Assembly (NCBI GenBank): GCA_965178635.1
Contig: CBCXVT010000020.1
Span: 2,991-66,990 of the forward strand
DNA from: Flavobacteriaceae bacterium
GTDB lineage: Bacteria > Bacteroidota > Bacteroidia > Flavobacteriales > Flavobacteriaceae
DNA: 64,000 nucleotides
Direction: 5' to 3'
Each line of letters opens with the position of its first letter. The first letter of the stretch is position 1. The position numbers were made by a program, and so were the translations under genes. The notes under the pieces are model-generated. The model saw nothing but the letters and a program-made list of their open reading frames with translations, was not told the origin of the DNA and ran no database searches. Shown here one piece after another: positions 3,133 through 54,608 of this stretch.

Positions 3133-4175
3133 GTCTTATGGAAACGAATAAAGTCACTTTAAGTATATGTTGTATCACGTATAATCAAGAAGCCTTTATA
3201 AAAGAAACTTTGAGTGGTTTTTTGAAACAAAAAGTTAACTTTATAATAGAGATTATTATTTATGATGATAATTCAACAGATAATACTAGGGAATTACTTC
3301 AAGATTTTAAAGCGAATTGTGTTTTTCCAGTAACATTACTTTTAGCAAAAGAAAATAGATATTCAAAGGGTGATCGTATATTCCCAAAAACTTTTAAGGC
3401 AGCAAAAGGCAAATACATCGCCTTATGTGAAGGCGATGACTATTGGACGGATCCTTTAAAACTACAAAAACAAGTTGACTTTTTAGAGGCTAACAGAGAT
3501 TATGCATTAGTGTTTACAAATGGACAAGTTGTGTACACCAACACACATGAACCGTCTCATTTAATATATAATAATACAAGTCATTCCACTACGTCATATA
3601 GAGTGTTTAATTTACCAGAAGAAACAACAGATATTTATAAACTAGCTAAAGGGAATTACATACATACAGCTGGGGTTGTGTTTAGAAATTGGATAATAGA
3701 ACAGGGAGTGCCAGAATATATGTATCGAGTAACTATTGGAGATTGGCCTCTGCACATGATGACGGCAACTAAAGGGCTTATTAAATATCTTGATGAAGAT
3801 ATGTTTTGCTATCGGGTTCACGATGTAGGGGTTTATTCAAAAAAGACAGCGCTACAAAAAAACCAAATGACTTTAGGGCAATTTCCTCCTATTCTAAACT
3901 CAAATTATTTTGAGAACAGTGTTAGAGAAGTTATTGAAACCTATTGCCTTAAAAGCTCTAAAAGTTACCTTAGTGCTTGTAAAACGGGTAATGATTTTCA
4001 ATTTTTTACTGATTTTTCAGGATCTTTTGATTCTAATAATGAAGTCTTAAATAATAAGTTATTACAGCTTTTAGATAAAAGAAACCAAAACCAAAATAAA
4101 GTCTTAATACAACCAGTATATTTGCGTTTGCTTAAAAGGATAAAACGATACATTAAAAAAATATTAAAATTATGA
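3129..4175 (+). CDS. Family 2 glycosyltransferase
   Basis: N-terminal LSICCITYNQEAFI...IIYDDNSTDNT followed by a DxD-like CEGDDYW. Confidence 0.75.
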   Translation: MSLMETNKVTLSICCITYNQEAFIKETLSGFLKQKVNFIIEIIIYDDNSTDNTRELLQDFKANCVFPVTLLLAKENRYSKGDRIFPKTFKAAKGKYIALCEGDDYWTDPLKLQKQVDFLEANRDYALVFTNGQVVYTNTHEPSHLIYNNTSHSTTSYRVFNLPEETTDIYKLAKGNYIHTAGVVFRNWIIEQGVPEYMYRVTIGDWPLHMMTATKGLIKYLDEDMFCYRVHDVGVYSKKTALQKNQMTLGQFPPILNSNYFENSVREVIETYCLKSSKSYLSACKTGNDFQFFTDFSGSFDSNNEVLNNKLLQLLDKRNQNQNKVLIQPVYLRLLKRIKRYIKKILKL

Positions 4176-8513: not shown

Positions 8514-9339
8514 ATGATAATTAATGGAAGAAACGGTTTAACTGAACAATTATATACAGCAATTTTAGCCGCTCTAGAAGCAGGCGAAGCCATCATGAAC
8601 GTGTATGATAGCCCCGATTTTGGTGTTGAAATTAAAGACGATAAGTCGCCATTAACTCGTGCTGATAAGTATGCAAATGACATTATCAATACCTATTTAA
8701 TTCCTACTCAGATTCCGATAATTAGTGAAGAAAATAAACAAACAGACTACGCCACACGTAAAGAATGGCAACAGTGTTGGATTGTGGACCCTGTAGATGG
8801 AACAAAAGAATTCATTAAACGTAACGGAGAGTTTACGGTCAATATCGCTTTAGTTACCAATGGAGGTGCCTGAGTTAGGGGTGATTTATGTGCCGGTAAC
8901 AAAAACGGTATATGTCGCTGAAGTATCTACGCAAACGGGGTATAAAGCAACAGTTGAATCTCATCGTGCATCTATAGAAGATGTTATAGCAAAAGCAGAA
9001 CAATTACAACCTAAAAAAGTGTCAAATTCTGTTGAGGTAGTTGGGAGCAGATCACATATGAGTACCGAAACGGAACAGTATGTGGAAGCTTTAAAACAAG
9101 AAGGAAAAGAAGTGTCTATAGTGTCAAAAGGAAGTTCCTTAAAGTTTTGTTTGGTAGCTGAAGGAAACGCCGATGTCTATCCGCGCTTTGCACCTACAAT
9201 GGAGTGGGATACTGCTGCTGGACAAGCGATTTGTAATGCGGTTGGTGTTGCAGTCATTTCCGAAGCAACAAAAGCGCCATTACTATATAATAAAGAAAAT
9301 TTATTGAACCCTTGGTTCATCTGTAAATATGAAGGATAG
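8514..9339 (+). pseudogene. cysQ: 3'(2'),5'-bisphosphate nucleotidase CysQ, split by a frameshift near 8866
   Basis: WIVDPVDGTKEF and EWDTAAGQAI motifs. It is read as two overlapping ORFs (8514-8873 and 8860-9339) in different frames. Confidence 0.75.
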
Positions 9340-9611
9340 TTCTAAAAAACGACATATTGCCAAAACAATTACTTGGCGTGTTATTGCTTCCGTGTACAAC
9401 GTTCGTTATTGCATATTTGTTTTTTAAAGAAGACCCTATGGCAACTGAAAAAGCCACTGGTGTTGCATTAACAGAATCTGTTATTAAAATGGGCTTATAT
9501 TATTTTCATGAACGGTTTTGGTATGCAAATCTAATTTTGGATTGCCAACCTCACGAAAAAACCAACAAAAAGATAGCTAATGGAAAAAAATATTATTCCA
9601 CAAAACTATAA
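9329..9611 (+). pseudogene. DUF2061-like small membrane protein, frameshifted near 9395
   Basis: MKDSSKKRHIAKTITWRVIAS in one frame continues as TTFVIAYLFF...LYYFHERFWY in another. Confidence 0.5.
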
Positions 9612-10202
9612 AGTATCTGTAGCTCAGATCGAAGAAAAAAAAATAAACACAATTCACTTTGTAGATATGGTTTACAGGGCTTGTCAGGTTCTGGAAAATC
9701 AACCATAGCTAAGTCTGGTAGAACAGCGTCTTTTTGAACAGGGGATATCGCAACGTATGCCTTAGATGGAGATAATATAAGAGGATGGTATCAATAAAAA
9801 TTTGAGTTTCTCAGCCCTGAAGACAGATCAGAGAATATTCAGGACGAATAGCAGAAATATCAAACTTAATGGTTGATGCAGGTTTAGTCGTGTTTGGCTG
9901 CATTCATATCGCCTTATAAAAATGATAGAGAGCAATACGTAAAGAAAGACTAGTGAAAGATGTTAACTTTGTTGAGGTATTATGTCAATACGTCTGTGGA
10001 GGAGTGTGAGCGTAGAGATGTCAAAAGGCTTGTACAAAAAAGCGCGAGCAGGAGAAATTACAAAACATGACGGGAATTTCGGCACCTTATGAAGCGCCAG
10101 AAAACCCAGATATAGAAATACTAACACTGAACAACGAAACAATAGAGCAAGCTGTAAATAAAATTAGTGGCCTACATAACACCAAAATTGACAAGTGTCT
10201 AA
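9580..10202 (+). pseudogene. cysC: Adenylyl-sulfate (APS) kinase CysC, many frameshifts
   Basis: The P-loop WFTGLSGSGKSTIA is readable only if an extra g at 9683 is skipped. LDGDNIR, ISPY, GLYKKARAGEI and GISAPYE pieces lie scattered over all three frames. Confidence 0.75.
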
Positions 10203-11112
10203 TGAGTAAGTATTATTTAAATTATTTAGATGAATTAGAAAGTGAAGCCATCTTTATTTTAAGAGAAGTATGGGCACAATTTCAAAACCCAGTCATACTT
10301 ATTTTCTGGAGGGAAAGATTCTATTTTAGTCACGCACTTAGCTAAAAAAGCATTTTACCCAAGTAAAATACCATTCTCATTAATGCATGTAGATACAGGG
10401 CATAATTTTCCTGAAACGATTCAGTTTAGAGATGATTTGATAAAAGAGTTTGGAGTAAACTTAATTGTAGGCTCTGTGCAGGAGTCAATTGATGAAGGCA
10501 AAGTAGCCGAAGAGAAAGGTAAAAACGCCACAAGAAATGCCTTGCAAATAACAACGCTTGCTTAGATGCTATTGAGTTGCATAAGGTAGATTGCGCTATT
10601 GGTGGCGGACGTCGTGATGAAGAGAAAGCTACGAGCAAAAGAACGTTTCTTTTCACATAGAGATGATTTCGGGCAATGGGATCCTAAAAATCAAAGACCA
10701 GAATTATGGAACTTGTTAAATGGTAAACACTTTGAAGGCGAGCATTTTAGAGCTTTTCCAATAAGTAATTGGACTGAAATGGATGTTTGGAATTATATAA
10801 AACGCGAAAATATTGCCATTCCTTCCTTATACTATGCACACGAACGTGAAGTGGTATGGAGAAGTAATTCATGGATTCCAAACTCTGAATTTTTACTATT
10901 AGAACCGCATGAGGAAGTAGTGACTAAAAAAATACGATTCAGAACTTTAGGAGACATTACCATTACTGGAGGGATGGAATCTGAAGCGGATACACTTAGA
11001 AAAAATTGCCATTGAAGTTGCAGCCATGCGCCAAACGGAACGTGGAAATAGAACTGACGATAAGCGTTCTGAATCTGCAATGGAAGATAGAAAGCGCCAA
11101 GGGTATTTTTAA
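10202..11112 (+). pseudogene. cysD: Sulfate adenylyltransferase subunit 2 CysD, at least 4 frameshifts
   Basis: The PP-loop FSGGKDS is readable only after skipping an extra a at 10301. HVDTGHNFPE, GGGRRDEEKARAKERFFSHRD and WDPKNQRPELW are split over several ORFs. Confidence 0.8.
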
Positions 11113-11172
11113 AATGAATTATAAAGAAATCTGTTTTTTAAAAACAGATTCAGAGGATATAAAACAGCAGAC

Positions 11173-12445
11173 ATGTTAGATAATAATCAATTATTGCGTT
11201 TTACAACAGCAGGGAGTGTAGATGATGGGAAGAGTACCTTGATTGGACGCTTATTATACGATTCAAAATCAATTTTTGAAGACCAGTTAGAGGCTATAGA
11301 AATCTACAAGTAAAAAGAAAGGCCACAAAGGCGTTGATTTAGCCTTGTTTACAGATGGCTTGCGTGATGAAAGAGAACAAGGAATTACTATTGACGTGGC
11401 TTACCGTTATTTTACTACGCCTAAACGTAAGTTTATAATAGCAGACACACCTGGGCATATTCAATACACCACGAAATATGATTACCGGAGCATCTACAGC
11501 TAATGTGGCTACCATATTAATTGATGCACGACATGGTGTAGTAGAGCAAACCAAACGCCATACATTCATTGCGTCATTATTACAAATACCGCATATCATT
11601 GTCTGTATCAATAAAATGGATTTAGTAGATTTTTCAGAAGAGGTGTTTACTAAAATTGTAGCTGATTTTGAAGAAGTAGCCTCTAAAATGATGGTTAAAG
11701 ATGTACGATTCATTCCAATGAGTGCCTTATTAGGCGATAATGTTGTGACACCGCTCTGAGAATATGAACTGGTACCAAGGGGCACCCATGTTACATACTT
11801 TAGAAACCATGCACATTAGTAGTGATGTTAATAAAGTAGATGCGCGTTTTCCGGTACAAACGGTATTACGTCCACAAAATGACACACATAGAGACTATAG
11901 AGGCTATGCTGGACGATTAGCTAGCGGAACATTACGTGTGGCAGATGAAGTAACTGTATTGCCGTCAGGGTTTACATCAAAAATAAAAACGATAGATACC
12001 TTTGATGAATCACTAAAAGAAGCATTCGCACCTATGTCTGTTTCTGTAACTTTAGAGGATGATGTAGATGTGGGTAGAGGGGATATGATAGTGCGTTCAA
12101 ACAATATACCAGACTGCAGTCACAAGATATTGAGGTGATGTTATGTTGGTTGACATAATGCAGCCATCAAAACCAAGGACTAAATATACCAGTCAAGCAT
12201 ACCTCTAATGATCAAAAAGCAATGATTAAAGAGCTAGTGTTATACGTAATAGATATCAATACATCTCAGTAGACGTGTACTGCTAGGTGATGCTACTTTA
12301 GAAATGAATGACTATTGCTAAAGTAAAAATTAGAACAACTAAACCACTGCTGGTAGATTCTTACAGAGAGAATAGAGCTACAGGTAGTATTATTTTAGTT
12401 GATGACGCTACTAATGAAACAGTGGCAGCTGGAATGATTGTGTAA
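11173..12445 (+). pseudogene. cysN: Sulfate adenylyltransferase subunit 1 (GTPase) CysN, at least 5 frameshifts
   Basis: The G1 motif [15 protein letters not shown] is intact. DTPGH and NKMD motifs and the C-terminal ATGSIILVDDATNETVAAGMI are recoverable only by changing frame. Confidence 0.8.
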
Positions 12446-12461
12446 AATGATGCCTCCTATC

Positions 12462-13310
12462 GTCATATCGACGTCAGGAGATATCTTATCGAGTTGATTT
12501 AAACAGGATTCTGGTGATTTCGACTTTAGGAGAAATCACATCTGAGTAAGTGTATTTGAGTGGTTTCTTGTGATATTCATTATGTGATTTCTCACTCCAC
12601 TTTGTTTCGTTTCGAAATGACACCGTGTATTATTTTGTGTATAACCATTTACGAATTTGTCAATTCGACGATAGGAGAAATCTCATCCAGTTCGATAAAG
12701 AGGTTCCTTGTCATTTCGACGTTAGGAGAAATCTCACAAGATGCTAAAGTTGCTATAACTATACAAAAGGATTAACTATTAACTATGTCAAACAGGTATT
12801 TTACTTATATCGTTACAAATAAATCCCGAACTACACTTTATATTGGAGTAACTAATAATATTCAAAGACGATTATCAGAGCATTATCCTGATAGTCAAAA
12901 CGCTAAAAGTTCTTTTGTAAGTAAATACAATTGTTATGACTTCCCGTATTACGAGACATTTGAATGTGTTAATACAGCCATTCTTAGAGAAAAAACACTT
13001 AAATACTGGAGCCGAGAAAAGAAAAATCAGCTAATTAGATTGTTCAATCCTAGCTGGGAGAGTTTGAATAACCAAATATTCTAACAGATATATTACTCAA
13101 CGTCATGTCGACGTCAGGAGAAACTTCATTCTTGTTGCTTTGTCCATTCGTCTTGTCATTTCGACTTTAGGAGAAATCTCATATTCTTGTTTTCATACAA
13201 CCTTGTCAGTTCGACTTCAGGAGAAATCTCATTCACTTTGTAACATTGTCATTGGTTCCATTGTCATTGGTTCCATTGTCATGTCGACGGTATGAGACAG
13301 CTCATTCACA
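12462..13310. repeat. Cluster of 9 copies of a ~30-nt hairpin-type element (consensus about GTCATTTCGACnTnAGGAGAAATCTCA)
   Basis: Copies start near 12462, 12514, 12584 (inverted, longer variant), 12658, 12708, 13101, 13153, 13203 and 13276. The arms are ATTTC and GAAAT. Confidence 0.8.
12785..13084 (+). CDS. GIY-YIG nuclease-family protein
   Basis: YFTYIVTN...LYIGVTNNIQRRLSEH matches the GIY-YIG N-terminal signature. 99 aa. Confidence 0.8.
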   Translation: MSNRYFTYIVTNKSRTTLYIGVTNNIQRRLSEHYPDSQNAKSSFVSKYNCYDFPYYETFECVNTAILREKTLKYWSREKKNQLIRLFNPSWESLNNQIF

Positions 13311-13825
13311 TGTTTATAGGGGGGGCTTGCCCCGTAAATGTTAATAGAAGTCCGCATCCATAAGCTTAACGTAATTTCGGTTATCATTCCAACAGTGGTA
13401 GTGTTTAGCGTATAGTCAGCCAATAGTACCGTACTCAAAGGGGCATTTGTATTGAAATCAAAGCCTTTTAATAGTGCTTTTCCTTCCAATGTTGCTAGTC
13501 CTATACTTACATTTCGTTGTCCCCTAACTGAGGTTTCATCGGTATTTTTAACCTTGCTTAATGTTTGCATTATTCTAGAGGACGTTCTGCCGTCTTTTGC
13601 GTCTGTAAGTAATGTCAACATCGCCTTTCGGAGCACTTTTCCCATTTTGGCACAATGCCCGAACTCTGCGCCATTCTCTCGAGTACGTGCATAGGCCGGA
13701 TCTGTTGCCATACGTTGTTTACTAACGCCGCCCTTAGTACGCACCAAGTAACCATCTTTTGTTTTATAGAAGGTCAACCCGTCTAAGGTACCTTCTAACT
13801 TAATTAGGCTTCTTAATTTTGCCAT
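13229..13825 (-). pseudogene. Uncharacterised MAK..GT.DG..FYK family protein, copy A, 3' part replaced by repeat sequence
   Basis: The first ~150 aa align with copies B and C. The remaining C-terminal third is a translation of the hairpin element and a 15-nt tandem repeat (MTMEP x2.6). Confidence 0.6.
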
Positions 13826-14085
13826 AATTTTTATGTGTTTTAATTAATATTGATGTGTTGTGTAGTTTTAAAAACACAATTAGAACTTCTGTATAGGCCT
13901 CTACAGAGCGTCTGATTTCAAATGTTTTTGCTGTCCTACAAGATAAAGCTAAGCACTTATAAGTTAGTGTGTTGTCAAAAGTGACCATCCTTGCCGATTT
14001 TGCCGAAAAGGGGAGTTTTTTCCGAATATGCCGTTTTTGTATATTGAAGAATCATGTAATTTACCTATTACAGAAGAGGATATCC

Positions 14086-14118
14086 CGTAGATGCGTCGTA
14101 GATACCCCGTAGTTAAAG
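14086..14118 (+). promoter_or_regulatory. Three tandem 11-bp direct repeats (iteron/operator-like), module A
   Basis: CGTAGATGCGT / CGTAGATACCC / CGTAGTTAAAG at 14086, 14097 and 14108. Confidence 0.6.
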
Positions 14119-14363
14119 TGTAAACACCATTCTAAATAATACAAACTGCGCACTAGTGAAATCAATAAATACGAATTCAAATACATGGTAATCAGTTAGT
14201 TAGTCTTGTTTTTTTAAATATTTTGATAAATGAGTGTTGAAAACTGCTGTTTGAAAACGTTACGTTTACCATTCTAAAAGTGTAATTTGTAATAGCTTGT
14301 AAGCATAAGATTTGAAATCTAAGGGCTATACTTTACAAGCAGATTGTCAATAGTAAACACACA

Positions 14364-14561
14364 ATGCATAGAATTTGTATACATACAAAAGAAGTACAAA
14401 TCATTACGGGTAAAAGTGAGCGAACAGCAAGGACTGTTATAAATGATATTAAAATTACTTATAACAAACAAAAGCATCAAGAAATCACTATTCGTGAGTT
14501 TTGTGACTATATGGATTTTCCATATGAAGAGGTGTATCAAATGATTAACCCTAAAAAATAA
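14364..14561 (+). CDS. Small (65 aa) HTH-like DNA-binding protein, module A
   Basis: Paralog of 24398-24604 and 49278-49485. Shared pattern: CI..K(D/E)(V/I)...TG(K/R).ER..R....IK....K..HQ...I.EF..Y. Confidence 0.55.
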   Translation: MHRICIHTKEVQIITGKSERTARTVINDIKITYNKQKHQEITIREFCDYMDFPYEEVYQMINPKK

Positions 14562-19762: not shown

Positions 19763-22700
19763 GGCCTTCGCTATGATCTCGTAAAAAATGCGATGAAAAT
19801 GCCGTAAAAGATGATGCTGTCTGAGCGCAGTGAGTTCATCAGATTTAGGCGTCGAACAAAATTTTTAGAGACTATAGCGTCAGCCTAGCGTTTTTGGGTT
19901 CTTTTTTGGGCGATGCAAAAAAGAATAGAGCCTTAAAATAAAACGGGTAGTCTCTATAAAAAATCAGTAGTCAACCAGGTTTTGAAATTGTTTTTTAAGC
20001 AATAATAACTAAGAGTATCAAAATTAACTCTGCATTAAATTATCGGCCTTCGCTATGATCTCGTAAAAAATGCGATGAAAATGCCGTAAAAGATGATGCT
20101 GTCTGAGCGCAGCGAGTTCATCAGATTTAGGCGTCGAACAAAATTTTTAGAGACTATAGCGTCAGCCTAGCGTTTTTGGGTTCTTTTTTGGGCGATGCAA
20201 AAAAGAATAGAGCCTTAAAATAAAACGGGTAGTCTCTATAAAAAATAAGTAGTCAACCAGGTTTTGAAATTGTTTTTTAAGCAATAATAACTAAGAGTAT
20301 CAAAATTAACTCTGCATTAAATTATCGGCCTTCGCTATGATCTCGTAAAAAATGCGATGAAAATGCCGTAAAAGATGATGCTGTCTGAGCGCAGTGAGTT
20401 AATCAGATTTAGGCGTCGAACAAAATTTTTAGAGACTATAGCGTCAGCCTAGCGTTTTTTGGGTTCTTTTTTGGGCGATGCAAAAAAGAATAGAGCCTTA
20501 AAATAAAACGGGTAGTCTCTATAAAAAATCAGTAGTCAACCAGGTTTTGAAATTGTTTTTTATGCAATAATAACTAAGAGTATCAAAATTAACTCTGCAT
20601 TAAATTATCGGCCTTCGCTATGATCTCGTAAAAAAATGCGGTGAAAATGCCGTAAAAGATGATGCTGTCTGAGCGCAGCGAGTTCATCAGATTTAGGCAT
20701 CGAACAAAATTTTTAGAGACTATAGCGTCAGCCTAGCGTTTTTGGGTTCTTTTTTGGGCGATGCAAAAAAGAATAGAGCCTTAAAATAAAACGGGTAGTC
20801 TCTATAAAAAATCAGTAGTCAACCAGGTTTTGAAATTGTTTTTTAAGCAATAATAACTAAGAGTATCAAAATTAACTCTGCATTAAATTATCGGCCTTTC
20901 GCTATGATCTCGTAAAAAATGCTGTGAAAATGCCGTAAAAGATGATGCTGTCTGAGCACAGCGAGTTCATCAGATTTAGGCGTCGAACAAAATTTTTAGA
21001 GACTATAGCGTCAGCCTAGCGTTTTTGGGTTCTTTTTTGGGCGATGCAAAAAAGAATAGAGCCTTAAAATAAAACGGGTAGTCTCTATAAAAAATCAGTA
21101 GTCAACCAGGTTTTGAAATTGTTTTTTAAGTAATAATAACTAAGAGTATCAAAATTAACTCTGCATTAAATTATCGGCTTTCGCTATGATCTCGTAAAAA
21201 ATGCGATGAAAATGCCGTAAAAGATGATGCTGTCTGAGCGCAGTGAGTTAATCAGATTTAGGCGTCGAACAAAATTTTTAGAGACTATAGCGTCAGCCTA
21301 GCGTTTTTTGGGTTCTTTTTTGGGCGATGCAAAAAAGAATAGAGCCTTAAAATAAAACGGGTAGTCTCTATAAAAAATCAGTAGTCAACCAGGTTTTGAA
21401 ATTGTTTTTTATGCAATAATAACTAAGAGTATCAAAATTAACTCTGCATTAAATTATCGGCCTTCGCTATGATCTCGTAAAAAAATGCGGTGAAAATGCC
21501 GTAAAAGATGATGCTGTCTGAGCGCAGCGAGTTCATCAGATTTAGGCATCGAACAAAATTTTTAGAGACTATAGCGTCAGCCTAGCGTTTTTTGGGTTCT
21601 TTTTTGGGCGATGCAAAAAAGAATAGAGCCTTAAAATAAAACGGGTAGTCTCTATAAAAAATCAGTAGTCAACCAGGTTTTGAAATTGTTTTTTATGCAA
21701 TAATAACTAAGAGTATCAAAATTAACTCTGCATTAAATTATCGGCCTTTCGCTATGATCTCGTAAAAAATGCAGTGAAAATGCCGTAAAAGATGATGCTG
21801 TCTGAGCACAGCGAGTTCATCAGATTTAGGCGTCGAACAAAATTTTTAGAGACTATAGCGTCAGCCTAGCGTTTTTTGGGTTTTTTTTGGGGCGATGCAA
21901 AAAAGAATAGAGCCTTAAAATAAAACGGGTAGTCTCTATAAAAAATCAGTAGTCAACCAGGTTTTGAAATTGTTTTTTATGCAATAATAACTAAGAGTAT
22001 CAAAATTAACTCTGCATTAAATTATCGGCCTTTCGCTATGATCTCGTAAAAAATGCAGTGAAAATGCCGTAAAAGATGATGCTGTCTGAGCACAGCGAGT
22101 TCATCAGATTTAGGCGTCGAACAAAATTTTTAGAGACTATAGCGTCAGCCTAGCGTTTTTTGGGTTTTTTTTGGGGCGATGCAAAAAAGAATAGAGCCTT
22201 AAAATAAAACGGGTAGTCTCTATAAAAAATCAGTAGTCAACCAGGTTTTGAAATTGTTTTTTAAGCAATAATAACTAAGAGTATCAAAATTAACTCTACA
22301 TTAAATTATCGGCCTTCGCTATGATCTCGTAAAAAATGCGGTGAAAATGCCGTAAAAGATGATGCTGTCTGAGCGCAGCGAGTTCATCAGATTTAGGCAT
22401 CGAACAAAATTTTTAGAGACTATAGCGTCAGCCTAGCGTTTTTTGGGTTCTTTTTTGGGCGATGCAAAAAAGAATAGAGCCTTAAAATAAAACGGGTAGT
22501 CTCTATAAAAAATCAGTAGTCAACCAGGTTTTGAAATTGTTTTTTAAGCAATAATAACTAAGAGTATCAAAATTAACTCTGCATTAAATTATCGGCCTTC
22601 GCTATGATCTCGTAAAAAATGCGGTGAAAATGCCGTAAAAGATGATGCTGTCTGAGCGCAGCGAGTTCATCAGATTTAGGCATCGAACAAAATTTTTAGA

Positions 22701-22844
22701 GACTATAGCGTCAGCCTAGCGTTTTTTGGGTTCTTTTTTGGGCGATGCAAAAAAGAATAGAGCCTTAAAATAAAACGGGTAGTCTCTATAAAAAATCAGT
22801 AGTCAACCAGGTTTTGAAATTGTTTTTTAAGCAATAATAACTAA
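19763..22844. repeat. Non-coding tandem array, ~10.9 copies of a 282-284-bp unit
   Basis: Unit starts (ggcc(t)ttcgctatgatctcg) at 19763, 20045, 20327, 20610, 20893, 21176, 21459, 21743, 22027, 22311 and 22594. No ORF of 60 aa or more on either strand. Confidence 0.95.
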
Positions 22845-22963: not shown

Positions 22964-23713
22964 TTACAAAACATCTAAAATCTGTAAAGCATTATATGCC
23001 CCATTACGTAACGGATACTGCACCCCATTAACCTCTTGAAAAAATGCAATTTTCAATAAGTAAATAGATGTACCAGTTCCAGTCGGTACCCCCAAGGGAG
23101 TTAAAGTTACAGGAGTAAGTACAGAATTGATAGCAGTATTAAAAACAGCACTCAATTGCAAATCTTTAAGTGCTGTACTAAAATCCAAATTCAAAAACCC
23201 GCAACTCAAGCTCACGTGTGTAGCACCTTCTGGTAAACCTAAATTCTGAAGGGGGATAAAATCACTGATCACCACCTCACCAGTAGCTGTATTCAAACTG
23301 TAGTCTGATAAAAGCACACTGCTTAACGGTGCTTGGGCATTAAAATCAAAACCTGATAAAGCCTCTTGCCCTGTAGCTGTTGAAAGCCCAGCCGATACCT
23401 GACGTTGTCCGCGTATAGACGTGAGATCAGCATTTTTAACACGACTCATCACTTGTGTCAATCGTGGTGTAACACTGGAATCTTTAGCATCTGTCAGTAG
23501 GGGCAAAATTGCTTGTCGCAACAGTTTGCCGCTAGTGGCACAATGCCCAAATTCCGTCCCGTTTTCTCGGGTGCGAATAAACGCAGGATCATTTTTAATT
23601 CGTTGAGCACTAACACCACCTTTGGTGCGTACCAAATACCCCTCTTTGCCCTTGTAAAAGGTAAGACCGTCCAGGGTGCCTTCAATCTTAATAAAGCTGT
23701 TTAATTTAGCCAT
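22964..23713 (-). CDS. Uncharacterised MAK..GT.DG..FYK family protein, copy B (intact, 249 aa)
   Basis: Shares MAK-IK-GT-FYK-KGGV-DPAF-RTRENG-EFG N-terminal blocks and a C-terminal FFQEVNG..Y.L.NG.YNAL block with copy C. Confidence 0.7.
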   Translation of the reverse strand: MAKLNSFIKIEGTLDGLTFYKGKEGYLVRTKGGVSAQRIKNDPAFIRTRENGTEFGHCATSGKLLRQAILPLLTDAKDSSVTPRLTQVMSRVKNADLTSIRGQRQVSAGLSTATGQEALSGFDFNAQAPLSSVLLSDYSLNTATGEVVISDFIPLQNLGLPEGATHVSLSCGFLNLDFSTALKDLQLSAVFNTAINSVLTPVTLTPLGVPTGTGTSIYLLKIAFFQEVNGVQYPLRNGAYNALQILDVL

Positions 23714-24129
23714 AATAGTATATGTTTTAGGAGTACAACAGAATTTTACAAAGTCTATATTGTAGAGCTATGCTAACACTCAATCTAATTAAGCAATTAG
23801 CTTAGGGATTTGAAATGAAATTCAGAAGCCTACTAAAAGTCTGTTGCACTCTTGGTTAATAAATATAAATCTGATAAAAACAGGACTCTAACTAATGTGT
23901 AGCGCGCACATGCATAGTACTCTACATGAATTAATGACACCAATATTAAAGAACTGTGATTCAGTCTTATAAACCTAAAACATATTGTGATACAAAGCAA
24001 GTACGCTATGTCGAGAAGTGCACATAAAGACCTATTTTATCGTATTTTTCCAGAATGTCCCAAAATTTCTGAAAATGACCAAAAGTGCCGTTTTTTGCTG
24101 ATAGAGTTTAATAAAACGGATGAAGATGA

Positions 24130-24173
24130 TGTATAGCTAATGTATGGATAGTGTATGCATACTGTATGAAAAA
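24130..24173 (+). promoter_or_regulatory. Four tandem 11-bp direct repeats, module B
   Basis: TGTATAGCTAA / TGTATGGATAG / TGTATGCATAC / TGTATGAAAAA at 24130, 24141, 24152 and 24163. Confidence 0.6.
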
Positions 24174-24397: not shown

Positions 24398-24604
24398 ATG
24401 AAGAGACTTTGCATCTATGCCAAAGATGTACAGATGATCACCGGAAAAGGTGAACGTTTTGCACGCAAAATAATAAAACAAATTAAACAGAAACTAGGGA
24501 AGAAACCCCACCAGTTCGTATCGATAAAGGAGTTCTGCGATTATGTCGATTTGCAATACGAAGAAGTCTATTATACCATCAATAACAGAAAACCGCGATA
24601 TTAG
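24398..24604 (+). CDS. Small (68 aa) HTH-like DNA-binding protein, module B
   Basis: Paralog of 14364-14561. Lies directly upstream of, and co-oriented with, PS locus 3. Confidence 0.55.
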   Translation: MKRLCIYAKDVQMITGKGERFARKIIKQIKQKLGKKPHQFVSIKEFCDYVDLQYEEVYYTINNRKPRY

Positions 24605-49277: not shown

Positions 49278-49485
49278 TTAAGAGACTACTTCAAGATACT
49301 TATCAATAACCTCCTCTTTAATGCCACTATATTCTGCAAATTCATCAGGAGTGATAAATTGATGTTGCTCTTTCCCAAAGTACGTTTTAATTTTCTTTAA
49401 AAGCATACGTCCATAACGTTCGCTACGTCCTGTTAGAAACATAATATCTTTTGGGAAAATACAATGTCTTTTTAACCTTATTCAT
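49278..49485 (-). pseudogene. Small HTH-like protein, module C; N-terminus shifted by one extra A in an A5 run (about 49463-49467)
   Basis: MNKVK in one frame and RHCIFPKDIMFLTGRSERYGRMLLKKIK...HQFITPDEFAEY in the next. An internal ATG at 49442 would give 54 aa. Confidence 0.5.
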
Positions 49486-49510
49486 ACACTATCTATACTT
49501 TATCTATACA
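49478..49510 (-). promoter_or_regulatory. Three tandem 11-bp direct repeats, module C
   Basis: On the minus strand: TGTATAGATAA / AGTATAGATAG / TGTATGAATAA. The last one contains the ATG of the HTH gene. Confidence 0.6.
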
Positions 49511-49637
49511 CTAATTAACCATCATGTGTTTGTGAAAAATCGGCAAAAACGGTAGAAAACGGAATGGATGACCAGTGCTTTTAGGATTACTTCTTAAAGA
49601 TACGGAGCTTTATTGAGAATCAAAAATCATTATAATT

Positions 49638-50393
49638 ATGGCAAAGCAAATTGGAATTATCAAATTAAAAGGAACTATCGGAGATATTTCTTTTTACAAA
49701 TCGCAAGATGGGCACTTGGCTCGTGGTAAAGGAGGTGTTGAAGCTTCTAGAATTGCAAATGATCCAGCGTTTCAAAGAACTCGTGAAAACGGGTCAGAAT
49801 TTGGACGTGCAGGAAAAGGTGGTAAACTATTAAGAGTGGCTTTACGTACACTGTTGCAAAAAGCCTCTGACAATAGAGTCACAAGCAGGTTGACCAAAAA
49901 CGTACTGACTGTTATTAAAGCAGATACTACCAACGATAGAGGTTTACGAACTATCCCTGATGGTGATTTATCACTATTAGAAAATTTTGAGTTCAACAAA
50001 AACGGAAAGCTGGGGGGCATACTTTATGCAGCTTACGCAGGAACAATTGATCGTGTGGCTGGAACTGTCGTTGCAGATATCGCAGAATTTATTGCTGTGA
50101 ATGATATTGTAGCACCAAGTGGTACCACTCACTTTAAAATTTCAAACGGTGGTGTTGAGGTTGATTTTGCTGCAGAAACGTATGTTTTTGATAGTGAAGT
50201 GTCGGCAATTTTACCTTGGGATAGTAGTACAGTTGCGCCGTTATCATTGACGGCTAATTTAACAGCTAACTCTACGCTACCAATTTTTCAAGTTATTGGT
50301 ATTGAATTCTTTCAAGAGGTGAATGGACAAATGTACTCCCTTAAAAACGGAAGTTACAATGCTTTAGCAATAGTTGGAATTGATACACCATAA
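49638..50393 (+). CDS. Uncharacterised MAK..GT.G..FYK family protein, copy C (251 aa)
   Basis: Same N- and C-terminal blocks as copy B. Confidence 0.7.
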   Translation: MAKQIGIIKLKGTIGDISFYKSQDGHLARGKGGVEASRIANDPAFQRTRENGSEFGRAGKGGKLLRVALRTLLQKASDNRVTSRLTKNVLTVIKADTTNDRGLRTIPDGDLSLLENFEFNKNGKLGGILYAAYAGTIDRVAGTVVADIAEFIAVNDIVAPSGTTHFKISNGGVEVDFAAETYVFDSEVSAILPWDSSTVAPLSLTANLTANSTLPIFQVIGIEFFQEVNGQMYSLKNGSYNALAIVGIDTP

Positions 50394-50395
50394 TC

Positions 50396-50818
50396 ATGGA
50401 ATTGACACTTTACAGAACTTATTTTGAAGGCGGTACCAACGGTACCCTCTTCTGTTCTGAAATTTTTTTATGTCACACGATAGAGTTGCCCTGGAGAGAG
50501 AACAAGCGAAATATCTCCTGTATACCAGAAGGTCGCTATGAATTGGTCCCTCGGTATTCAACGCATTTCAAACATCATCTTTTAGTTAAAAATGTGCCTA
50601 ATCGGTATCTCATTTTATTGCATCCCGCAAATGATGCGCTGAAAGAACTGCAAGGTTGTATTGCTCCAGTCACTTATTTAGGTGGTTTAGGCAAAGGCTT
50701 ACAATCTAGAAATGCGATGCAGAAATTAACCTCAGTAGTGCAACAAGCTATTGACTGTAAAGAACAGATTTTTTTAACCATAACAACACAACATTATGAA
50801 TTTAGTAGAACGGTATAA
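50396..50818 (+). CDS. DUF5675-like protein with a YkuD-like H-x12-GC motif
   Basis: 140 aa. ..LLHPANDALKELQGCIAPV.. resembles the His...Gly-Cys catalytic arrangement of L,D-transpeptidase-fold enzymes. The family name is from memory. Confidence 0.45.
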   Translation: MELTLYRTYFEGGTNGTLFCSEIFLCHTIELPWRENKRNISCIPEGRYELVPRYSTHFKHHLLVKNVPNRYLILLHPANDALKELQGCIAPVTYLGGLGKGLQSRNAMQKLTSVVQQAIDCKEQIFLTITTQHYEFSRTV

Positions 50819-51008
50819 TAAACCAACTCCGAAGTTTTTTAAAATTTTAAGAAACATCGGCATTGCCCTAGCCACCGCTGGAGGTGCCATCATCGCCGCA
50901 CCAATCAGTATGCCGGCCATTGTAGTCAGTATTGCAACCTATATGACTGTTGCAGGAACTGTCGCCACAGCAGTAAGTCAGGCAGTTGTTTCTGATAATG
51001 CTCCGTAA
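50796..51008 (+). CDS. Small two-TM membrane protein (70 aa)
   Basis: Ala/Gly/Ile-rich hydrophobic stretches. Overlaps the preceding gene by 23 nt. Confidence 0.45.
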   Translation: MNLVERYNKPTPKFFKILRNIGIALATAGGAIIAAPISMPAIVVSIATYMTVAGTVATAVSQAVVSDNAP

Positions 51009-51017
51009 AATAGCTCT

Positions 51018-51203
51018 ATGTCATTTATCATCGTAGATCATCATACTAAAGCAGGCGTTTTAGGCGGTACGCTTTTTTCAGCTTTTTTAAATTTAAGTTG
51101 GAATGCGATAGTCTATACTATTATCATGGCTGCCATCGGTGCTGTCGTTAGTTTTGTCGTCTCCCTATTACTTCGTTGGCTAGTGAAGCAGTATTTCAAC
51201 TAA
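51018..51203 (+). CDS. Small two-TM membrane protein (61 aa)
   Basis: Two hydrophobic segments and a basic C-terminus. Confidence 0.45.
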   Translation: MSFIIVDHHTKAGVLGGTLFSAFLNLSWNAIVYTIIMAAIGAVVSFVVSLLLRWLVKQYFN

Positions 51204-52708: not shown

Positions 52709-53446
52709 TTAAATTACTTCCCTTAAGTTGGTGTATGTTTGTGGTGCTAAAATACCTTTATAGTTGGAATTAACTCTTTTGAAAATATCATTACTAACTG
52801 TATATGGATGTAAATCTTCTTCTGGATATGAACTATTAATAAGTTCTTTAATATTACCCTCATTTAGATCATAATTCAACCAATCATTTTCTAGTTCTTT
52901 TTTAAGCAATACAGGTTGCCTTAATTTTAAATTGTGAATACTTGCTAATAACGGATCTGCAGGTTTTGTAAGTATTGTAGTCGTTAAATAGCCATCTGCA
53001 GTAATGGTATATAATCCAGCTAGTGCAAAGCTCTCTTTATCTTTTCTTGTTATATAGTAGGGATATTTTTTTCCTTCAACATCATGTGGTTCAAAGAAAC
53101 CATCGAAAGGAATTAAACAACGTTGCTCATAAATGGAATTGCTATATATAAAATGATCAAATACTTTTTCTGATTTGGCGTTTAATCCAGCTCCCCATTT
53201 GGCAGCATTCTTATAATATTCTTTTTGATTTGTTGTGTTTTCATTTGATGGCATGATGCCCCATGTAGCGCCTTCTAAAATATCAGACGCCCCTTGAGTA
53301 ATGATTGCTATATCTCTATGCTCAAAACCGTTGCTATGGTAAAAGGTGAAATCATCTTCTCCAATAGCATTACTATCATCACGAATGACTTTGAATCTGT
53401 CTTCTAATTGTGTTGTTTTTTTTGTTTGACTAGCGTGGAAGCACAT
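52709..53446 (-). CDS. SOS-response-associated peptidase (SRAP/YedK, DUF159)
   Basis: N-terminal Met-Cys and a QRCLIPFDGFFEP...FALAGLY block. Confidence 0.75.
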   Translation of the reverse strand: MCFHASQTKKTTQLEDRFKVIRDDSNAIGEDDFTFYHSNGFEHRDIAIITQGASDILEGATWGIMPSNENTTNQKEYYKNAAKWGAGLNAKSEKVFDHFIYSNSIYEQRCLIPFDGFFEPHDVEGKKYPYYITRKDKESFALAGLYTITADGYLTTTILTKPADPLLASIHNLKLRQPVLLKKELENDWLNYDLNEGNIKELINSSYPEEDLHPYTVSNDIFKRVNSNYKGILAPQTYTNLREVI

Positions 53447-53543
53447 GTTACTTTTTTAACAATTATTTCATTTGTTTACTTTGATGAGATTATTACGACT
53501 TTTTATCAAAAGCCTCATAATGACATTTTGGACTTTTGGAGTC

Positions 53544-53864
53544 TTATTTTGTGTTATTCTTTAAAGAGAACACTCTTCTTTTTAATGTTTCTATTTCTTT
53601 TTTGTTTTTATCTATTAAATAGAAGTATGAGAATAAGTATATCGTAAAAAATAATATTAGACTAAAAATTACAGCATTAGTGTATTCCCAAGTTTCAATC
53701 AAAGGTTTTCTCCCACGTCTTCCTGGAATATATGGAAAAATAAAAGAGAATATTAAACCACCACCTATTGCAAAGGGAACATTCTTCTTTAACTTTTTAA
53801 TACTATTTTTTGCTTTTAATACCCTAGACCTGATATCTTCAATTTCTTTTTGTTTATCTGTCAT
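53544..53864 (-). CDS. Small membrane protein (106 aa)
   Basis: Two hydrophobic segments. ORF only. Confidence 0.35.
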   Translation of the reverse strand: MTDKQKEIEDIRSRVLKAKNSIKKLKKNVPFAIGGGLIFSFIFPYIPGRRGRKPLIETWEYTNAVIFSLILFFTIYLFSYFYLIDKNKKEIETLKRRVFSLKNNTK

Positions 53865-53912
53865 ACTTTACTTTTATTATCAATACTTATAAAATAGATT
53901 TTAGACAAATGC

Positions 53913-54152
53913 TTAGAATAGTCTAAACATTTGTATTACAAAAATTAAAAAGCTAAAAAATATTAATACTATTATTAATCCTAAAGTATTGTAATAGGAG
54001 TAAAGGCTCACTTTTTCCTTTTTATATGCTTCTGGTAATAAATACATTACACTATAGATTAAAAGTAAAAGCGATAAAACTCCCGTTAAAAATGGGAATA
54101 ATTCAAATATTTCATAACAAAATTCTATTATTGGCCTTATTACTTCCTTCAT
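53913..54152 (-). CDS. Small membrane protein (79 aa)
   Basis: Two hydrophobic segments. Starts 4 nt after the umuD-like stop. Confidence 0.35.
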   Translation of the reverse strand: MKEVIRPIIEFCYEIFELFPFLTGVLSLLLLIYSVMYLLPEAYKKEKVSLYSYYNTLGLIIVLIFFSFLIFVIQMFRLF

Positions 54153-54155
54153 TAT

Positions 54156-54608
54156 TTACTCTATATCTCTTATTAATTGCATCACCACTCCTAAACACAT
54201 TAAGGTGTCTTCTTCTTTAATTTCTATATTATTGAAGTCCTTATTATCAGCAATTAGTATTTCTTTATTTTTATCGAATCGTTTGACGGTAAATTCAGTG
54301 TTGTTTAAGGATATGATGCCTATTTTATTATCGTCTAAATTAACATCTGTACGCACTACTAGTATGTCGCCAACATGTAAGGTCGGATACATGGAATCGC
54401 CTTTTACACGGACTATGTATGTGCTGTTTGGTTTGGATAAGTACTTTTCATCTAAGCTTAGTTTTTGTTCTTTAAAATCGTCTGCAGGAGACGGAAACCC
54501 TGCTTGTACGCCATCTTCAAAATAGTTTACAACGATGCCTTCCTCACTAATCCTAAACGGCAAGTTTTCTATTTCACTTCCGAACTGTGGTACTTTCACT
54601 ATTTTCAT
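54156..54608 (-). CDS. umuD: UmuD/LexA-like S24 peptidase
   Basis: VKGDSMYPTLHVGDILVV (Ser nucleophile) and ..FTVKRF.. (Lys). 150 aa. Confidence 0.75.
   Translation of the reverse strand: MKIVKVPQFGSEIENLPFRISEEGIVVNYFEDGVQAGFPSPADDFKEQKLSLDEKYLSKPNSTYIVRVKGDSMYPTLHVGDILVVRTDVNLDDNKIGIISLNNTEFTVKRFDKNKEILIADNKDFNNIEIKEEDTLMCLGVVMQLIRDIE

What the first reader, a model, noticed from the sequence alone, without database searches (positions are those of the whole stretch)
24130..24173. Copy-specific tandem 11-bp (one helical turn) direct repeats in all three modules
Seen in sequence.
- Module A: CGTAGATGCGT, CGTAGATACCC, CGTAGTTAAAG (14086-14118).
- Module B: TGTATAGCTAA, TGTATGGATAG, TGTATGCATAC, TGTATGAAAAA (24130-24173).
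- Module C, minus strand: TGTATAGATAA, AGTATAGATAG, TGTATGAATAA (49510-49478).

The period is exactly 11 bp in each copy. The shared core is YGTAKR and the rest is copy-specific. The repeats always have the same polarity as the HTH gene, and always lie 30-50 bp from a CCGTTTTTG word. In A and B they are about 245 and 225 bp upstream of the HTH start codon. In C that spacer is missing and the third repeat contains the ATG.

Divergence of the repeat sequence alongside divergence of the adjacent HTH protein is what cognate operator/iteron-protein pairs would show. Recombinase arm-type sites would show the same pattern.
Basis: seen in the sequence. Interest (0 to 1): 0.65.

Follow-up and report, generated by a model that had tools for sequence, protein, structure and literature searches.

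The report
Phased 11-bp operator-like repeats, orphan cassette
Three to four head-to-tail 11-bp repeats (core GTATRGATA) lie next to a small, probably DNA-binding gene in three copies of an uncharacterised two-gene cassette; the repeats are conserved across Bacteroidota and look like a cooperative protein-binding operator, although the binding protein has not been shown.

Summary
All three arrays are at the stated coordinates with an exact 11-bp period. GTA-N8-GTA-N8-GTA occurs 6 times in the window against 0.54 expected, and 5 of the 6 are in the modules.

The arrays belong to a divergent gene pair: a roughly 65-aa gene and a roughly 250-aa gene. Neither protein matches Pfam, NCBIfam, PHROGs, PADLOC or PDB. 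The pair is widespread in Bacteroidota, on chromosomes (often polysaccharide loci), on plasmids and in 1.6-4.1-kb islands with sharp ends.

Period-11 arrays recur in related loci: 22 of 66 intergenic regions at period 11, against at most 4 at any other period. The unit is an asymmetric 11-mer, TAT-RG-ATA-RWG. Between orders it is the only conserved block of the intergenic region.

In compact loci the array starts 11-35 nt after a Bacteroidetes -7 box and ends 2-26 nt before the small gene's ATG.

Best reading (0.45): a helically phased operator in the small gene's leader, bound cooperatively by the small winged-helix-like protein.

In the window, B and C share the array type although their small proteins are a distant pair. 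A Mantel test was negative. Polarity is not universal. No recombinase was found. Array-less relatives exist.

Module C's in-repeat ATG is out of frame in this sequence.

The parts
13229..13825 (-). Module A large gene (198 aa). Homologous to B and C only over residues 1-144. The C-terminus is replaced by tandem-repeat sequence.
13994..14039 (+). Module A cluster of CCG words: CCGATTTTG, CCGAAAAGG, CCGAATATG, CCGTTTTTG.
14086..14129 (+). Module A array: three CGTAGWT units plus one weak unit, exact 11-bp period.
14364..14561 (+). Module A small gene (65 aa, winged-helix-like orphan). It heads a GT2/GT4 glycosyltransferase operon.
22964..23713 (-). Module B large gene (249 aa orphan): disordered basic N-arm, helical middle, C-terminal beta-sandwich.
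24088..24097 (+). Module B CCG word, CCGTTTTTTG.
24130..24173 (+). Module B array: TGTATAGCTAA, TGTATGGATAG, TGTATGCATAC, TGTATGAAAAA (the finding's coordinates).
24398..24604 (+). Module B small gene (68 aa). It heads a long polysaccharide operon: AsnB-like, GT2, GT4, Wzy_C, Bac_transf.
49278..49487 (-). Module C small gene. The conserved reading frame runs 49475-49278. The ancestral ATG (49485-49483) lies in the third repeat and is out of frame because of an extra A in the run 49469-49473. As written, the ORF is 54 aa, starting at 49442.
49478..49510 (-). Module C array: TGTATAGATAA, AGTATAGATAG, TGTATGAATAA.
49535..49562 (-). Module C cluster of CCG words: CCGTTTTCT, CCGTTTTTG, CCGATTTTT.
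49638..50393 (+). Module C large gene (251 aa).
50396..51203 (+). Genes co-directional with the C large gene: DUF5675 (lysin-like peptidase) and two small ORFs with hydrophobic, membrane-like sequences (read by eye, no prediction run). The same arrangement occurs in Cellulophaga lytica, L062 and the Marivirga plasmid.

Best explanation
The 11-bp repeats are a helically phased, head-to-tail protein-binding array (an operator). It belongs to a conserved divergent two-gene cassette of Bacteroidota.

Each unit is an asymmetric 11-mer, consensus TAT-RG-ATA-RWG. Three to six units spaced one helical turn apart put all sites on one face of the DNA.

In the compact, probably ancestral layout, the array begins just downstream of the small gene's promoter -7 box and runs to its start codon.

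The most likely ligand is the cassette's own small protein, a roughly 65-aa beta-alpha-alpha-beta-alpha-alpha, winged-helix-like fold. It would bind cooperatively as a short filament and repress, or otherwise tune, its own transcription. In the Flavobacteriaceae versions, including modules A and B here, it would also affect the polysaccharide operon that the small gene heads.

Shown: the repeats, their phasing, their conservation, and their position relative to the genes and to promoter-like boxes.

Inferred: that they are bound by protein, which protein binds them, and the sign of the regulation.
For: 1. Not chance, and specific to the modules.
2. Period 11 is strongly enriched in related intergenic regions: 22 of 66 reach 17 or more of 22 matches, against at most 4 at any period from 7 to 16. 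TATNNATA x3 in 11-bp register beats at least 99% of shuffles in about 28 loci.
3. Positions not used to pick the units are also conserved: position 4 is R in 42/42, position 5 is G in 37/42, position 10 is W in 41/42, position 11 is G in 39/42.
4. Phylogenetic footprint. WB against its 87% relative L085: array 77% identical, rest of the intergenic region 51%. In a four-way alignment of window C, Mesohalobacter, Cellulophaga and a Marivirga plasmid, the array is the only conserved block.
5. In 13 of 21 distinct compact intergenic regions, an exact Bacteroidetes -7 box TAnnTTTG lies 11-35 nt upstream of the first strong unit. The array ends 2-26 nt before the ATG. Array-less Paludibacter-type loci have the box 24-25 nt from the ATG, so the array fills the leader.
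6. The small protein model is confident (pLDDT 90). It has an invariant T-G-x-S-E-R turn and helix start. Its weak hits are all to HTH or excisionase families. Tandem-duplicated two-domain members exist.
7. The array RNA has no structure signal: z-scores +1.56, -0.38 and -0.63. Rfam found nothing.
Against: - No binding data exist.
- The small protein has no significant match to any HTH family or fold.
- Array-less cassettes with the same recognition-helix motif exist: the Paludibacter type and the Fulvitalea plasmids.
- No statistical co-variation between array and small protein. The in-window pattern contradicts simple cognate divergence.
- In the long intergenic regions of Flavobacteriaceae, including modules A and B, the array is 214-2600 nt from the small gene. 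It keeps its distance to the CCG words and the large gene instead. An operator role there needs a long leader or a different target.
- In those loci the central dinucleotide or the orientation is often flipped.
- Transcription starts are not mapped. The metatranscriptome contigs carry no strand information.
Confidence: 0.45

Rival explanations
1. The array is bound by the large (about 250-aa) protein, alone or together with the small one. It would control the divergent promoter pair or serve that protein's unknown function.
For: The large protein has a disordered, very basic and highly conserved N-terminal region, with invariant K3, K9, K21, K31, R38, R47, R49, K63, R66, R84, R101 and R104. 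In long intergenic regions the array keeps its distance to the large gene and the CCG words, not to the small gene. The array-to-large-protein distance correlation is weakly positive (r = 0.14, p = 0.09) while that to the small protein is not. Two loci with no detectable small gene keep array-like units: L077 has two good units and L053 a degenerate set.
Against: The large protein's N-domain is much more conserved than the arrays are. No DNA-binding fold or family was detected. In compact loci the array abuts the small gene's ATG, 140-200 nt from the large gene. Array-less cassettes keep the large gene.
Confidence: 0.15
2. The repeats act in RNA. They would be an unstructured, A/U-rich leader with repeated GUAU motifs that promotes or regulates translation of the small gene, for example through ribosomal protein S1 or a specific RNA-binding protein.
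For: In compact loci the array lies between the -7 box and the ATG, so it should be transcribed. The C leader is less structured than 196 of 200 shuffles. By general knowledge, not tested here, Bacteroidetes initiate translation without Shine-Dalgarno pairing and favour unstructured leaders. Metatranscriptome contigs span the small gene plus the array.
Against: The exact 11-nt register and the one-helical-turn spacing have no obvious meaning in single-stranded RNA. The array occurs in the opposite orientation and hundreds of nt from the gene in many Flavobacteriaceae loci. Array-less relatives translate the same gene from a 24-nt leader.
Confidence: 0.1
3. The array is a cis-acting maintenance or mobility site of a mobile element: an iteron-type origin, a centromere-like or packaging site, or arm-type sites for a recombinase encoded elsewhere.
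For: The cassette behaves as a discrete unit. A 4.1-kb island is 97-98% identical in MAGs of different families and has sharp ends. A 1.6-kb cassette is about 90% identical across genera. One copy sits on each of 7 Fulvitalea plasmids and on a Marivirga plasmid. By general knowledge, 11-bp direct repeats are known in R1 parC and in the pMV158 RepB bind locus.
Against: No recognisable Rep, relaxase, ParM/ParA partner, integrase or transposase is in the cassette. In the Fulvitalea plasmid a separate Rep with its own 21-bp iterons and parAB lie next to a cassette that has no 11-bp array. The array is internal, not at the island ends. No inverted repeats suggest an invertible segment.
Confidence: 0.08
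4. A host factor binds the array. One candidate is DnaA: TATGGATAA is an 8/9 match to the reverse complement of the DnaA box TTATCCACA, and 9-mers spaced by 2 bp mimic the low-affinity DnaA arrays of oriC.
For: The sequence resemblance was read by eye. The 9+2 spacing rule for oriC comes from memory. The core is conserved across orders irrespective of the small-protein subtype.
Against: The resemblance rests on recalled consensus only. The mismatch falls in the CACA part of the box. Module A units (CGTAGATAC) and many relatives deviate further. The arrays are confined to this cassette rather than to origins. Nothing was tested.
Confidence: 0.04

Closest known systems
Xis/Cox/Apl-type small winged-helix proteins and their phased direct-repeat sites (lambda Xis X1-X1.5-X2 filament, P2 Cox boxes, 186 Apl, L5 gp36); from general knowledge
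   Same: A small (55-90 aa) protein. Three to seven asymmetric direct repeats about one helical turn apart, bound head to tail. In Cox and Apl the sites overlap promoters and repress transcription. The weak hits of the small protein point to excisionase/HTH_17/Tn916-Xis families.
   Different: No integrase or att site is linked. No significant sequence or fold similarity. The cassette sits in polysaccharide loci, plasmids and mini-islands, paired with an orphan 250-aa protein.
ParR-parC of plasmid R1 (type II partition): 11-bp iterated repeats that serve as both centromere and operator; from general knowledge
   Same: 11-bp direct repeats overlapping the promoter of the operon whose first product binds them. 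Plasmid association of the cassette.
   Different: ParR is a ribbon-helix-helix protein with a ParM partner, and parC has ten repeats. Here there are 3-6 repeats, no actin-like ATPase, and the Fulvitalea plasmid has its own parAB.
pMV158 RepB 'bind' locus (three 11-bp direct repeats) and plasmid iterons in general; from general knowledge
   Same: Three tandem 11-bp repeats recognised by a plasmid-encoded protein.
   Different: No HUH Rep or any Rep-like protein is in the cassette. A bona fide Rep with 21-bp iterons lies beside the cassette on pFA12.
Leader-region control elements of polysaccharide operons (JUMPStart/ops with RfaH; Bacteroides UpxY leaders); from general knowledge
   Same: In Flavobacteriaceae the array, a long leader and the small gene head wzm-wzt or glycosyltransferase operons.
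   Different: There is no NusG-like protein in the cassette. The element is a DNA-like phased repeat, not an ops-type single site. The cassette also occurs away from polysaccharide genes.

Membership tests
Excisionase/RDF-type (Xis, Cox, Apl) protein-site systems | Small protein is a recognisable member of an excisionase or MerR-like winged-helix family | tested here: not met
   Pfam and NCBIfam gave nothing at threshold. The best hits were TIGR01764 at E = 0.14, phrog_9834 at E = 0.02, and HTH_17 in 5 of 47 members at E of 0.0024 or worse. Best Foldseek PDB E-value was 0.6.
Excisionase/RDF-type (Xis, Cox, Apl) protein-site systems | Linked integrase and att site | tested here: not met
   No integrase domain was found in the window ORFs scanned or in the scanned ORFs of the 4.1-kb island. 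The 1.6-kb cassette holds only the two orphan genes. Only 2 of 72 neighbouring ORFs in relatives carry one.
Excisionase/RDF-type (Xis, Cox, Apl) protein-site systems | Three or more asymmetric direct repeats spaced about one helical turn | tested here: met
   Exact 11-bp period, 3-6 units, asymmetric consensus TATRGATARWG.
Iteron-type replication origin | Adjacent Rep initiator that matches a Rep family | tested here: not met
   The large protein has no family or fold match. On pFA12 a separate annotated Rep with 21-bp iterons lies beside the cassette.
Type II partition locus (ParR/parC/ParM) | Actin-like ParM ATPase encoded downstream of the repeat-binding protein | tested here: not met
   Genes downstream of the small gene are glycosyltransferases, ABC-2 transporters or unrelated housekeeping genes.
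Autoregulatory operator of a small transcription factor | Site overlaps or directly follows the regulator's own promoter | tested here: inconclusive
   An exact TAnnTTTG box lies 11-35 nt upstream of the array in 13 of 21 compact intergenic regions. No such box is present in the window's three modules, and no transcription start is mapped.
Autoregulatory operator of a small transcription factor | The regulator binds the site | not testable with these tools
   Needs EMSA, footprinting or ChIP.
Structured cis-regulatory RNA | Conserved secondary structure or an Rfam family | tested here: not met
   No Rfam hit. Folding z-scores were +1.56, -0.38 and -0.63.
Invertible promoter segment | Flanking inverted repeats and both orientations within one lineage | tested here: not met
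   Only weak AT-rich inverted repeats (14-22 nt, 73-86% complementary) flank the arrays in A and B. Close relatives L004, L081, L082 and L085 have the same orientation as B.

The most novel reading that the evidence does not exclude
The small-gene / array / large-gene unit is an undescribed, self-contained mobile or plasmid-derived module of Bacteroidota. In this reading the orphan 250-aa protein (basic disordered arm plus beta-sandwich) has a new DNA-directed function, such as mobility, maintenance or a virus-like structural role. The phased 11-mers are its cis-acting site. Copies captured in polysaccharide loci now gate expression of surface-glycan operons.
Probability: 0.15. Interest if true: 0.75.

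Novelty: new variant of a known kind. Interest (0 to 1): 0.5.

Why it matters
The repeats mark the control region of a two-gene cassette that is very common in Bacteroidota. The large protein has more than 2,370 clusters at 90% identity. The small protein has about 1,400 clusters at 50% identity. Neither has any annotation, Pfam family or literature.

In marine Flavobacteriaceae the cassette repeatedly sits at the head of O-antigen or exopolysaccharide operons. It could therefore control surface-glycan expression, which matters for phage resistance, algal-polysaccharide ecology and biofilms.

The array gives a concrete, cheap handle for deorphanising both proteins: a 33-44-bp probe.

If the cassette proves mobile without any known recombinase, that would be of wider interest.

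Tried and rejected
- Protein family searches for both proteins (Pfam, NCBIfam, PHROGs, PADLOC, PDB sequence profiles): nothing significant.
- Foldseek of both AF2 models against PDB, and of the large one against BFVD: no hit at E of 0.001 or better.
- Rfam on the window and on five relatives, and tRNA scans: nothing. A tRNA-like 3' end at the edge of the 209-class cassette turned out to be a hairpin terminator.
- Invertible-segment idea: no convincing flanking inverted repeats.
- Global alignment of the long intergenic regions: too divergent to be useful.
- Mantel and partial Mantel tests for array-protein co-variation: no signal.
- Domain-fusion search for the small protein: only stand-alone proteins, tandem duplicates and gene-calling chimeras.
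- Transcription-start mapping from public RNA. No RNA run holds the window. Metatranscriptome contigs for the 4.1-kb island cover the array but carry no strand or end information, and may contain DNA.
- Phage collection: no homologue of the large protein.
- Literature: nothing for DUF6943 or for 11-bp repeats in Bacteroidetes.
- The DnaA-box resemblance was noted but not tested.

Full report
**1. Observation**

The three arrays are in the sequence exactly as described.
- Module A: 14086-14118, CGTAGATGCGT / CGTAGATACCC / CGTAGTTAAAG, followed by a weak fourth unit.
- Module B: 24130-24173, four TGTATRNNTAN units.
- Module C: 49510-49478 on the minus strand, three units.

The period is exactly 11 bp, and Tandem Repeats Finder reports it independently for A and B.

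The arrays are not chance.
- YGTAKR-N5 x3 has 2 overlapping hits, both in B, and none in 100 shuffles.
- The looser GTA-N8-GTA-N8-GTA has 6 hits against 0.54 expected, and 5 of them are in the modules.
- Single-unit matches outside the modules lie in coding sequence, and there are only two extra for each pattern: GTATRGATA 5 hits in all against 1.2 expected, CGTAGATRC 4 against 0.26.

The CCGTTTTTG words are 46, 33 and 33 bp upstream of the arrays. The spacers to the small-gene ATG are 245 bp in A and 224 bp in B.

**2. Anatomy in the window**

Each module is a divergent gene pair.
- Large gene: B 249 aa, C 251 aa. A is 198 aa, homologous only to residue 144, with a tail made of 15-bp and 50-bp tandem repeats.
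- Small gene: 65-68 aa.

Between the two genes, in order from the large gene, come a cluster of CCG(T/A)TTTTG words, the array, and then the small gene.

There are only three copies in the window.

In C, the ATG inside the third repeat is out of frame with the conserved ORF. Related contigs in two public runs lack one A at 49469, which restores the frame. Full-length homologues start MNKIKRHCIY. Several other genes in the window are split: cysQ-like, cysDN-like and umuC-like. The frameshift may therefore be an assembly error or real decay.

The window is a large polysaccharide-biosynthesis region, with DegT, GT2, GT4, Wzy_C and Bac_transf genes. Small genes A and B each head a glycosyltransferase operon.

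The closest public relative of module B is a Kordia MAG with 97% small-protein identity. The window is therefore probably from Kordia (Flavobacteriaceae); this is an inference.

**3. The proteins**

Neither protein matches Pfam, NCBIfam, PHROGs, PADLOC or PDB sequences at significance.

The large family has more than 2,370 clusters at 90% identity. None carries a consistent functional name; the source names are almost all 'hypothetical protein'. The small family has 1,397 clusters at 50% identity. Nearly all are stand-alone proteins of 60-130 aa, and a few are tandem duplicates.

The AF2 model of the small protein has pLDDT 90 and a beta-alpha-alpha-beta-alpha-alpha topology. Its turn and helix start, T-G-x-S-E-R, are invariant. 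Its only fold or sequence hints are sub-threshold hits to sigma region 4, LuxR, HTH_17, HTH_36 and Tn916-Xis. 'HTH' is therefore plausible but unproven.

The large protein model has pLDDT 83. It has a disordered basic N-arm, a helical middle and a C-terminal beta-sandwich, with no significant structural neighbour.

**4. Conservation of the array**

A scan of one genome per species found more than 551 loci, and 80 were fetched.
- 68 have the small gene divergently upstream by tblastn.
- A profile finds it in four more.
- Five loci are cut by contig ends.
- Four appear to lack it.

Period-11 self-similarity is the outstanding feature of the intergenic regions. 22 of 66 reach 17 or more of 22 matches at period 11, against at most 4 at any other period from 7 to 16.

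The unit is TATNNATA plus 3 nt. Three units in register beat at least 99% of shuffles in about 28 loci. In the common form the unselected positions are conserved too, giving the asymmetric consensus TAT-RG-ATA-RWG.

The two most enriched 7-mers across 40 representative intergenic regions are CCGTTTT (16/40 against 0.9 expected) and TCCATAC (13/40 against 0.1).

Footprints:
- Module B against an 87%-identical relative: the array is 77% identical and the rest of the intergenic region 51%.
- Window C, Mesohalobacter, Cellulophaga lytica and a Marivirga plasmid aligned together: the array is the only conserved block.

**5. Position**

Two layouts exist.

Compact intergenic regions (162-264 nt, and a 715-nt class that holds an extra SNase gene):
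- They occur in Chitinophagales, Cytophagales and some Flavobacteriales.
- The array ends 2-26 nt before the small gene's ATG.
- In 13 of 21 distinct cases the first strong unit lies 11-35 nt downstream of an exact Bacteroidetes -7 box, TAnnTTTG.
- The array-less Paludibacter class has the box 24-25 nt from the ATG.
- The array thus occupies the leader.

Long intergenic regions (425-3033 nt):
- They are typical of Flavobacteriaceae polysaccharide loci and include modules A and B.
- The array stays roughly 30-70 nt after the CCG words, read by eye from the printed intergenic regions.
- It is 214-2600 nt from the small gene.
- The gap is filled with simple repeats and REP-like elements.
- In these loci the unit is often TATCCATACAC, the reverse complement, or TATCCATAGAG. 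Polarity is therefore not fixed.

**6. Context**

The genes flanking the cassette vary. They are enriched for GT1/GT4, ABC-2/Wzt and other polysaccharide genes, but unrelated housekeeping genes also occur.

The cassette behaves as a discrete unit.
- A 4.1-kb island holds the small gene, the array, an SNase-like gene, the large gene, DUF6943 and small ORFs. It is 97-98% identical in MAGs assigned to different families. Its ends are sharp, with a left end TTACTTTCCGATACAAA.
- A 1.6-kb two-gene version is about 90% identical across genera.
- Seven Fulvitalea axinellae plasmids and one Marivirga plasmid carry one copy each. No sequenced phage does.
- On pFA12 the cassette lies between a separate Rep with 21-bp iterons and parAB. 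It has a CCGTTTTTG word but no 11-bp array.
- C-type cassettes continue into DUF5675, reported as a lysin-like C82-type peptidase (bioRxiv 10.64898/2026.04.11.717860), and into two small ORFs with hydrophobic, membrane-like sequences.
- The 4.1-kb island is present in many wastewater and biofilm metatranscriptomes. Coverage stops at the island ends.

**7.

The cognate-divergence argument does not hold in the window. A and B small proteins are the closest pair (55%), yet their arrays differ most. B and C are about 40% identical and share TGTATRGMTA.

Across 27 non-redundant loci, array distance does not correlate with small-protein distance (r = -0.07, p = 0.7). The correlation with the large protein is weak (r = 0.14, p = 0.09). 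The metric is crude, so this is inconclusive.

What the data do show is joint conservation. The canonical helix SER(Y/T)GR goes with TATRGATA across orders. The diversified helices of the Flavobacteriaceae polysaccharide-locus copies go with diversified arrays. This is confounded by phylogeny.

The arm-site reading lacks a recombinase.

**8. Mechanism**

The following features fit a DNA operator that lines up several protein copies on one face of the helix:
- exact one-turn spacing;
- asymmetric units arranged head to tail;
- three to six copies;
- placement from just after the promoter to the start codon;
- absence of any RNA-structure signal.

The small protein is the most economical ligand, acting by negative autoregulation and controlling whatever it is co-transcribed with. 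I give this 0.45.

Rival explanations:
- binding by the large protein, or by a joint complex: 0.15;
- an RNA leader function: 0.10;
- a maintenance or mobility site of a mobile element: 0.08;
- a host factor such as DnaA: 0.04. TATGGATAA is an 8/9 match to the reverse-complemented DnaA box, and 9+2 spacing recalls the oriC low-affinity arrays. This is a lead from memory and is untested.

**9. Comparison with known systems, and novelty**

The array works like the phased direct-repeat sites of Xis, Cox and Apl-type winged-helix proteins, and like parC of plasmid R1. It is not a member of either: there is no family match, no integrase or att site, and no ParM.

The kind of element is known. The cassette, both protein families and this 11-mer have no annotation or literature that I could find.

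I rate it a new variant of a known kind, with interest 0.5.

Noticed in passing
window 19763-22844: A 283-bp tandem repeat of 10.9 copies at 98% identity fills the gap between a GT4 gene and the end of the module B large gene. The same interval is about 455 bp in two metagenome contigs that encode the identical protein, and 843 bp in an 87% relative. Copy number therefore varies, or short-read assemblies collapse it. The unit carries a REP-like GC-rich palindromic segment. No ORF of 50 aa or more crosses it.
   Followed up: partly
window 13102-13282: The module A large gene loses homology after residue 144. It ends in a 15-bp x 2.6 repeat (encoding EPMTM repeats), followed by a 50-bp x 2.6 tandem repeat. 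The gene looks like a truncated or rearranged paralogue.
   Followed up: partly
window 8514-12138 and 54939-56197: Several genes are split into adjacent ORFs: Inositol_P (cysQ-like) in two pieces, PAPS_reduct and EF-Tu-domain-2 (cysDN-like) fragments, and a umuC-like gene in three pieces. Together with the one-base A-run shift in the module C small gene, this suggests either homopolymer errors in the assembly or real gene decay.
   Followed up: partly
L036-L044, L048, L052 (about 2892-6972 of L040): A 4.1-kb island is 97-98% identical in MAGs labelled as different families, one of them labelled Asaia. It has sharp ends and no recognisable recombinase. It carries the cassette plus an SNase-like gene and DUF6943. 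It is covered end to end in wastewater and biofilm metatranscriptomes, with zero coverage of the flanks.
   Followed up: partly
L083 (Fulvitalea axinellae plasmid pFA12) 3560-3690, and seven plasmids of that strain: Each of seven plasmids of one strain carries one copy of the large gene. On pFA12 the small gene is followed on the same strand by 21-bp iterons (CCCCAACCTAAAGTACGCGAA, about 3.5 copies) and an annotated rep gene. parAB lies on the other side.
   Followed up: partly
L007 about 270-390, L018 about 350-500, L001 about 440-480 (intergenic-region coordinates): In several Flavobacteriaceae loci, G/T-rich simple tandem repeats with periods of 7-8 bp (GTTGAGTT, GTTGTGGG, GAGAAGT) directly follow the 11-bp array. 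REP-like palindromes lie further on.
   Followed up: no
L087 and L088 intergenic regions; L019: The CCG words can themselves form arrays: 6-8 copies of YTGTTTTTG or CCGTTTTTG at roughly 10-19-bp spacing, upstream of the 11-bp array.
   Followed up: no
L021-L027, about 3550-3575: A direct repeat AGGTCACC-TAAT-AGGTCACC lies between the small gene's stop codon and a hairpin terminator that marks the end of the conserved 1.6-kb cassette.
   Followed up: no
P0237, P0238: Some members of the small-protein family are tandem duplications: two domains in 122-125 aa.
   Followed up: no
window 52709-54608 and 62880-63974: The module C side of the window also carries an SRAP-family gene, a LexA/UmuD-like peptidase gene next to the split umuC, and a McrBC component.
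   Followed up: no
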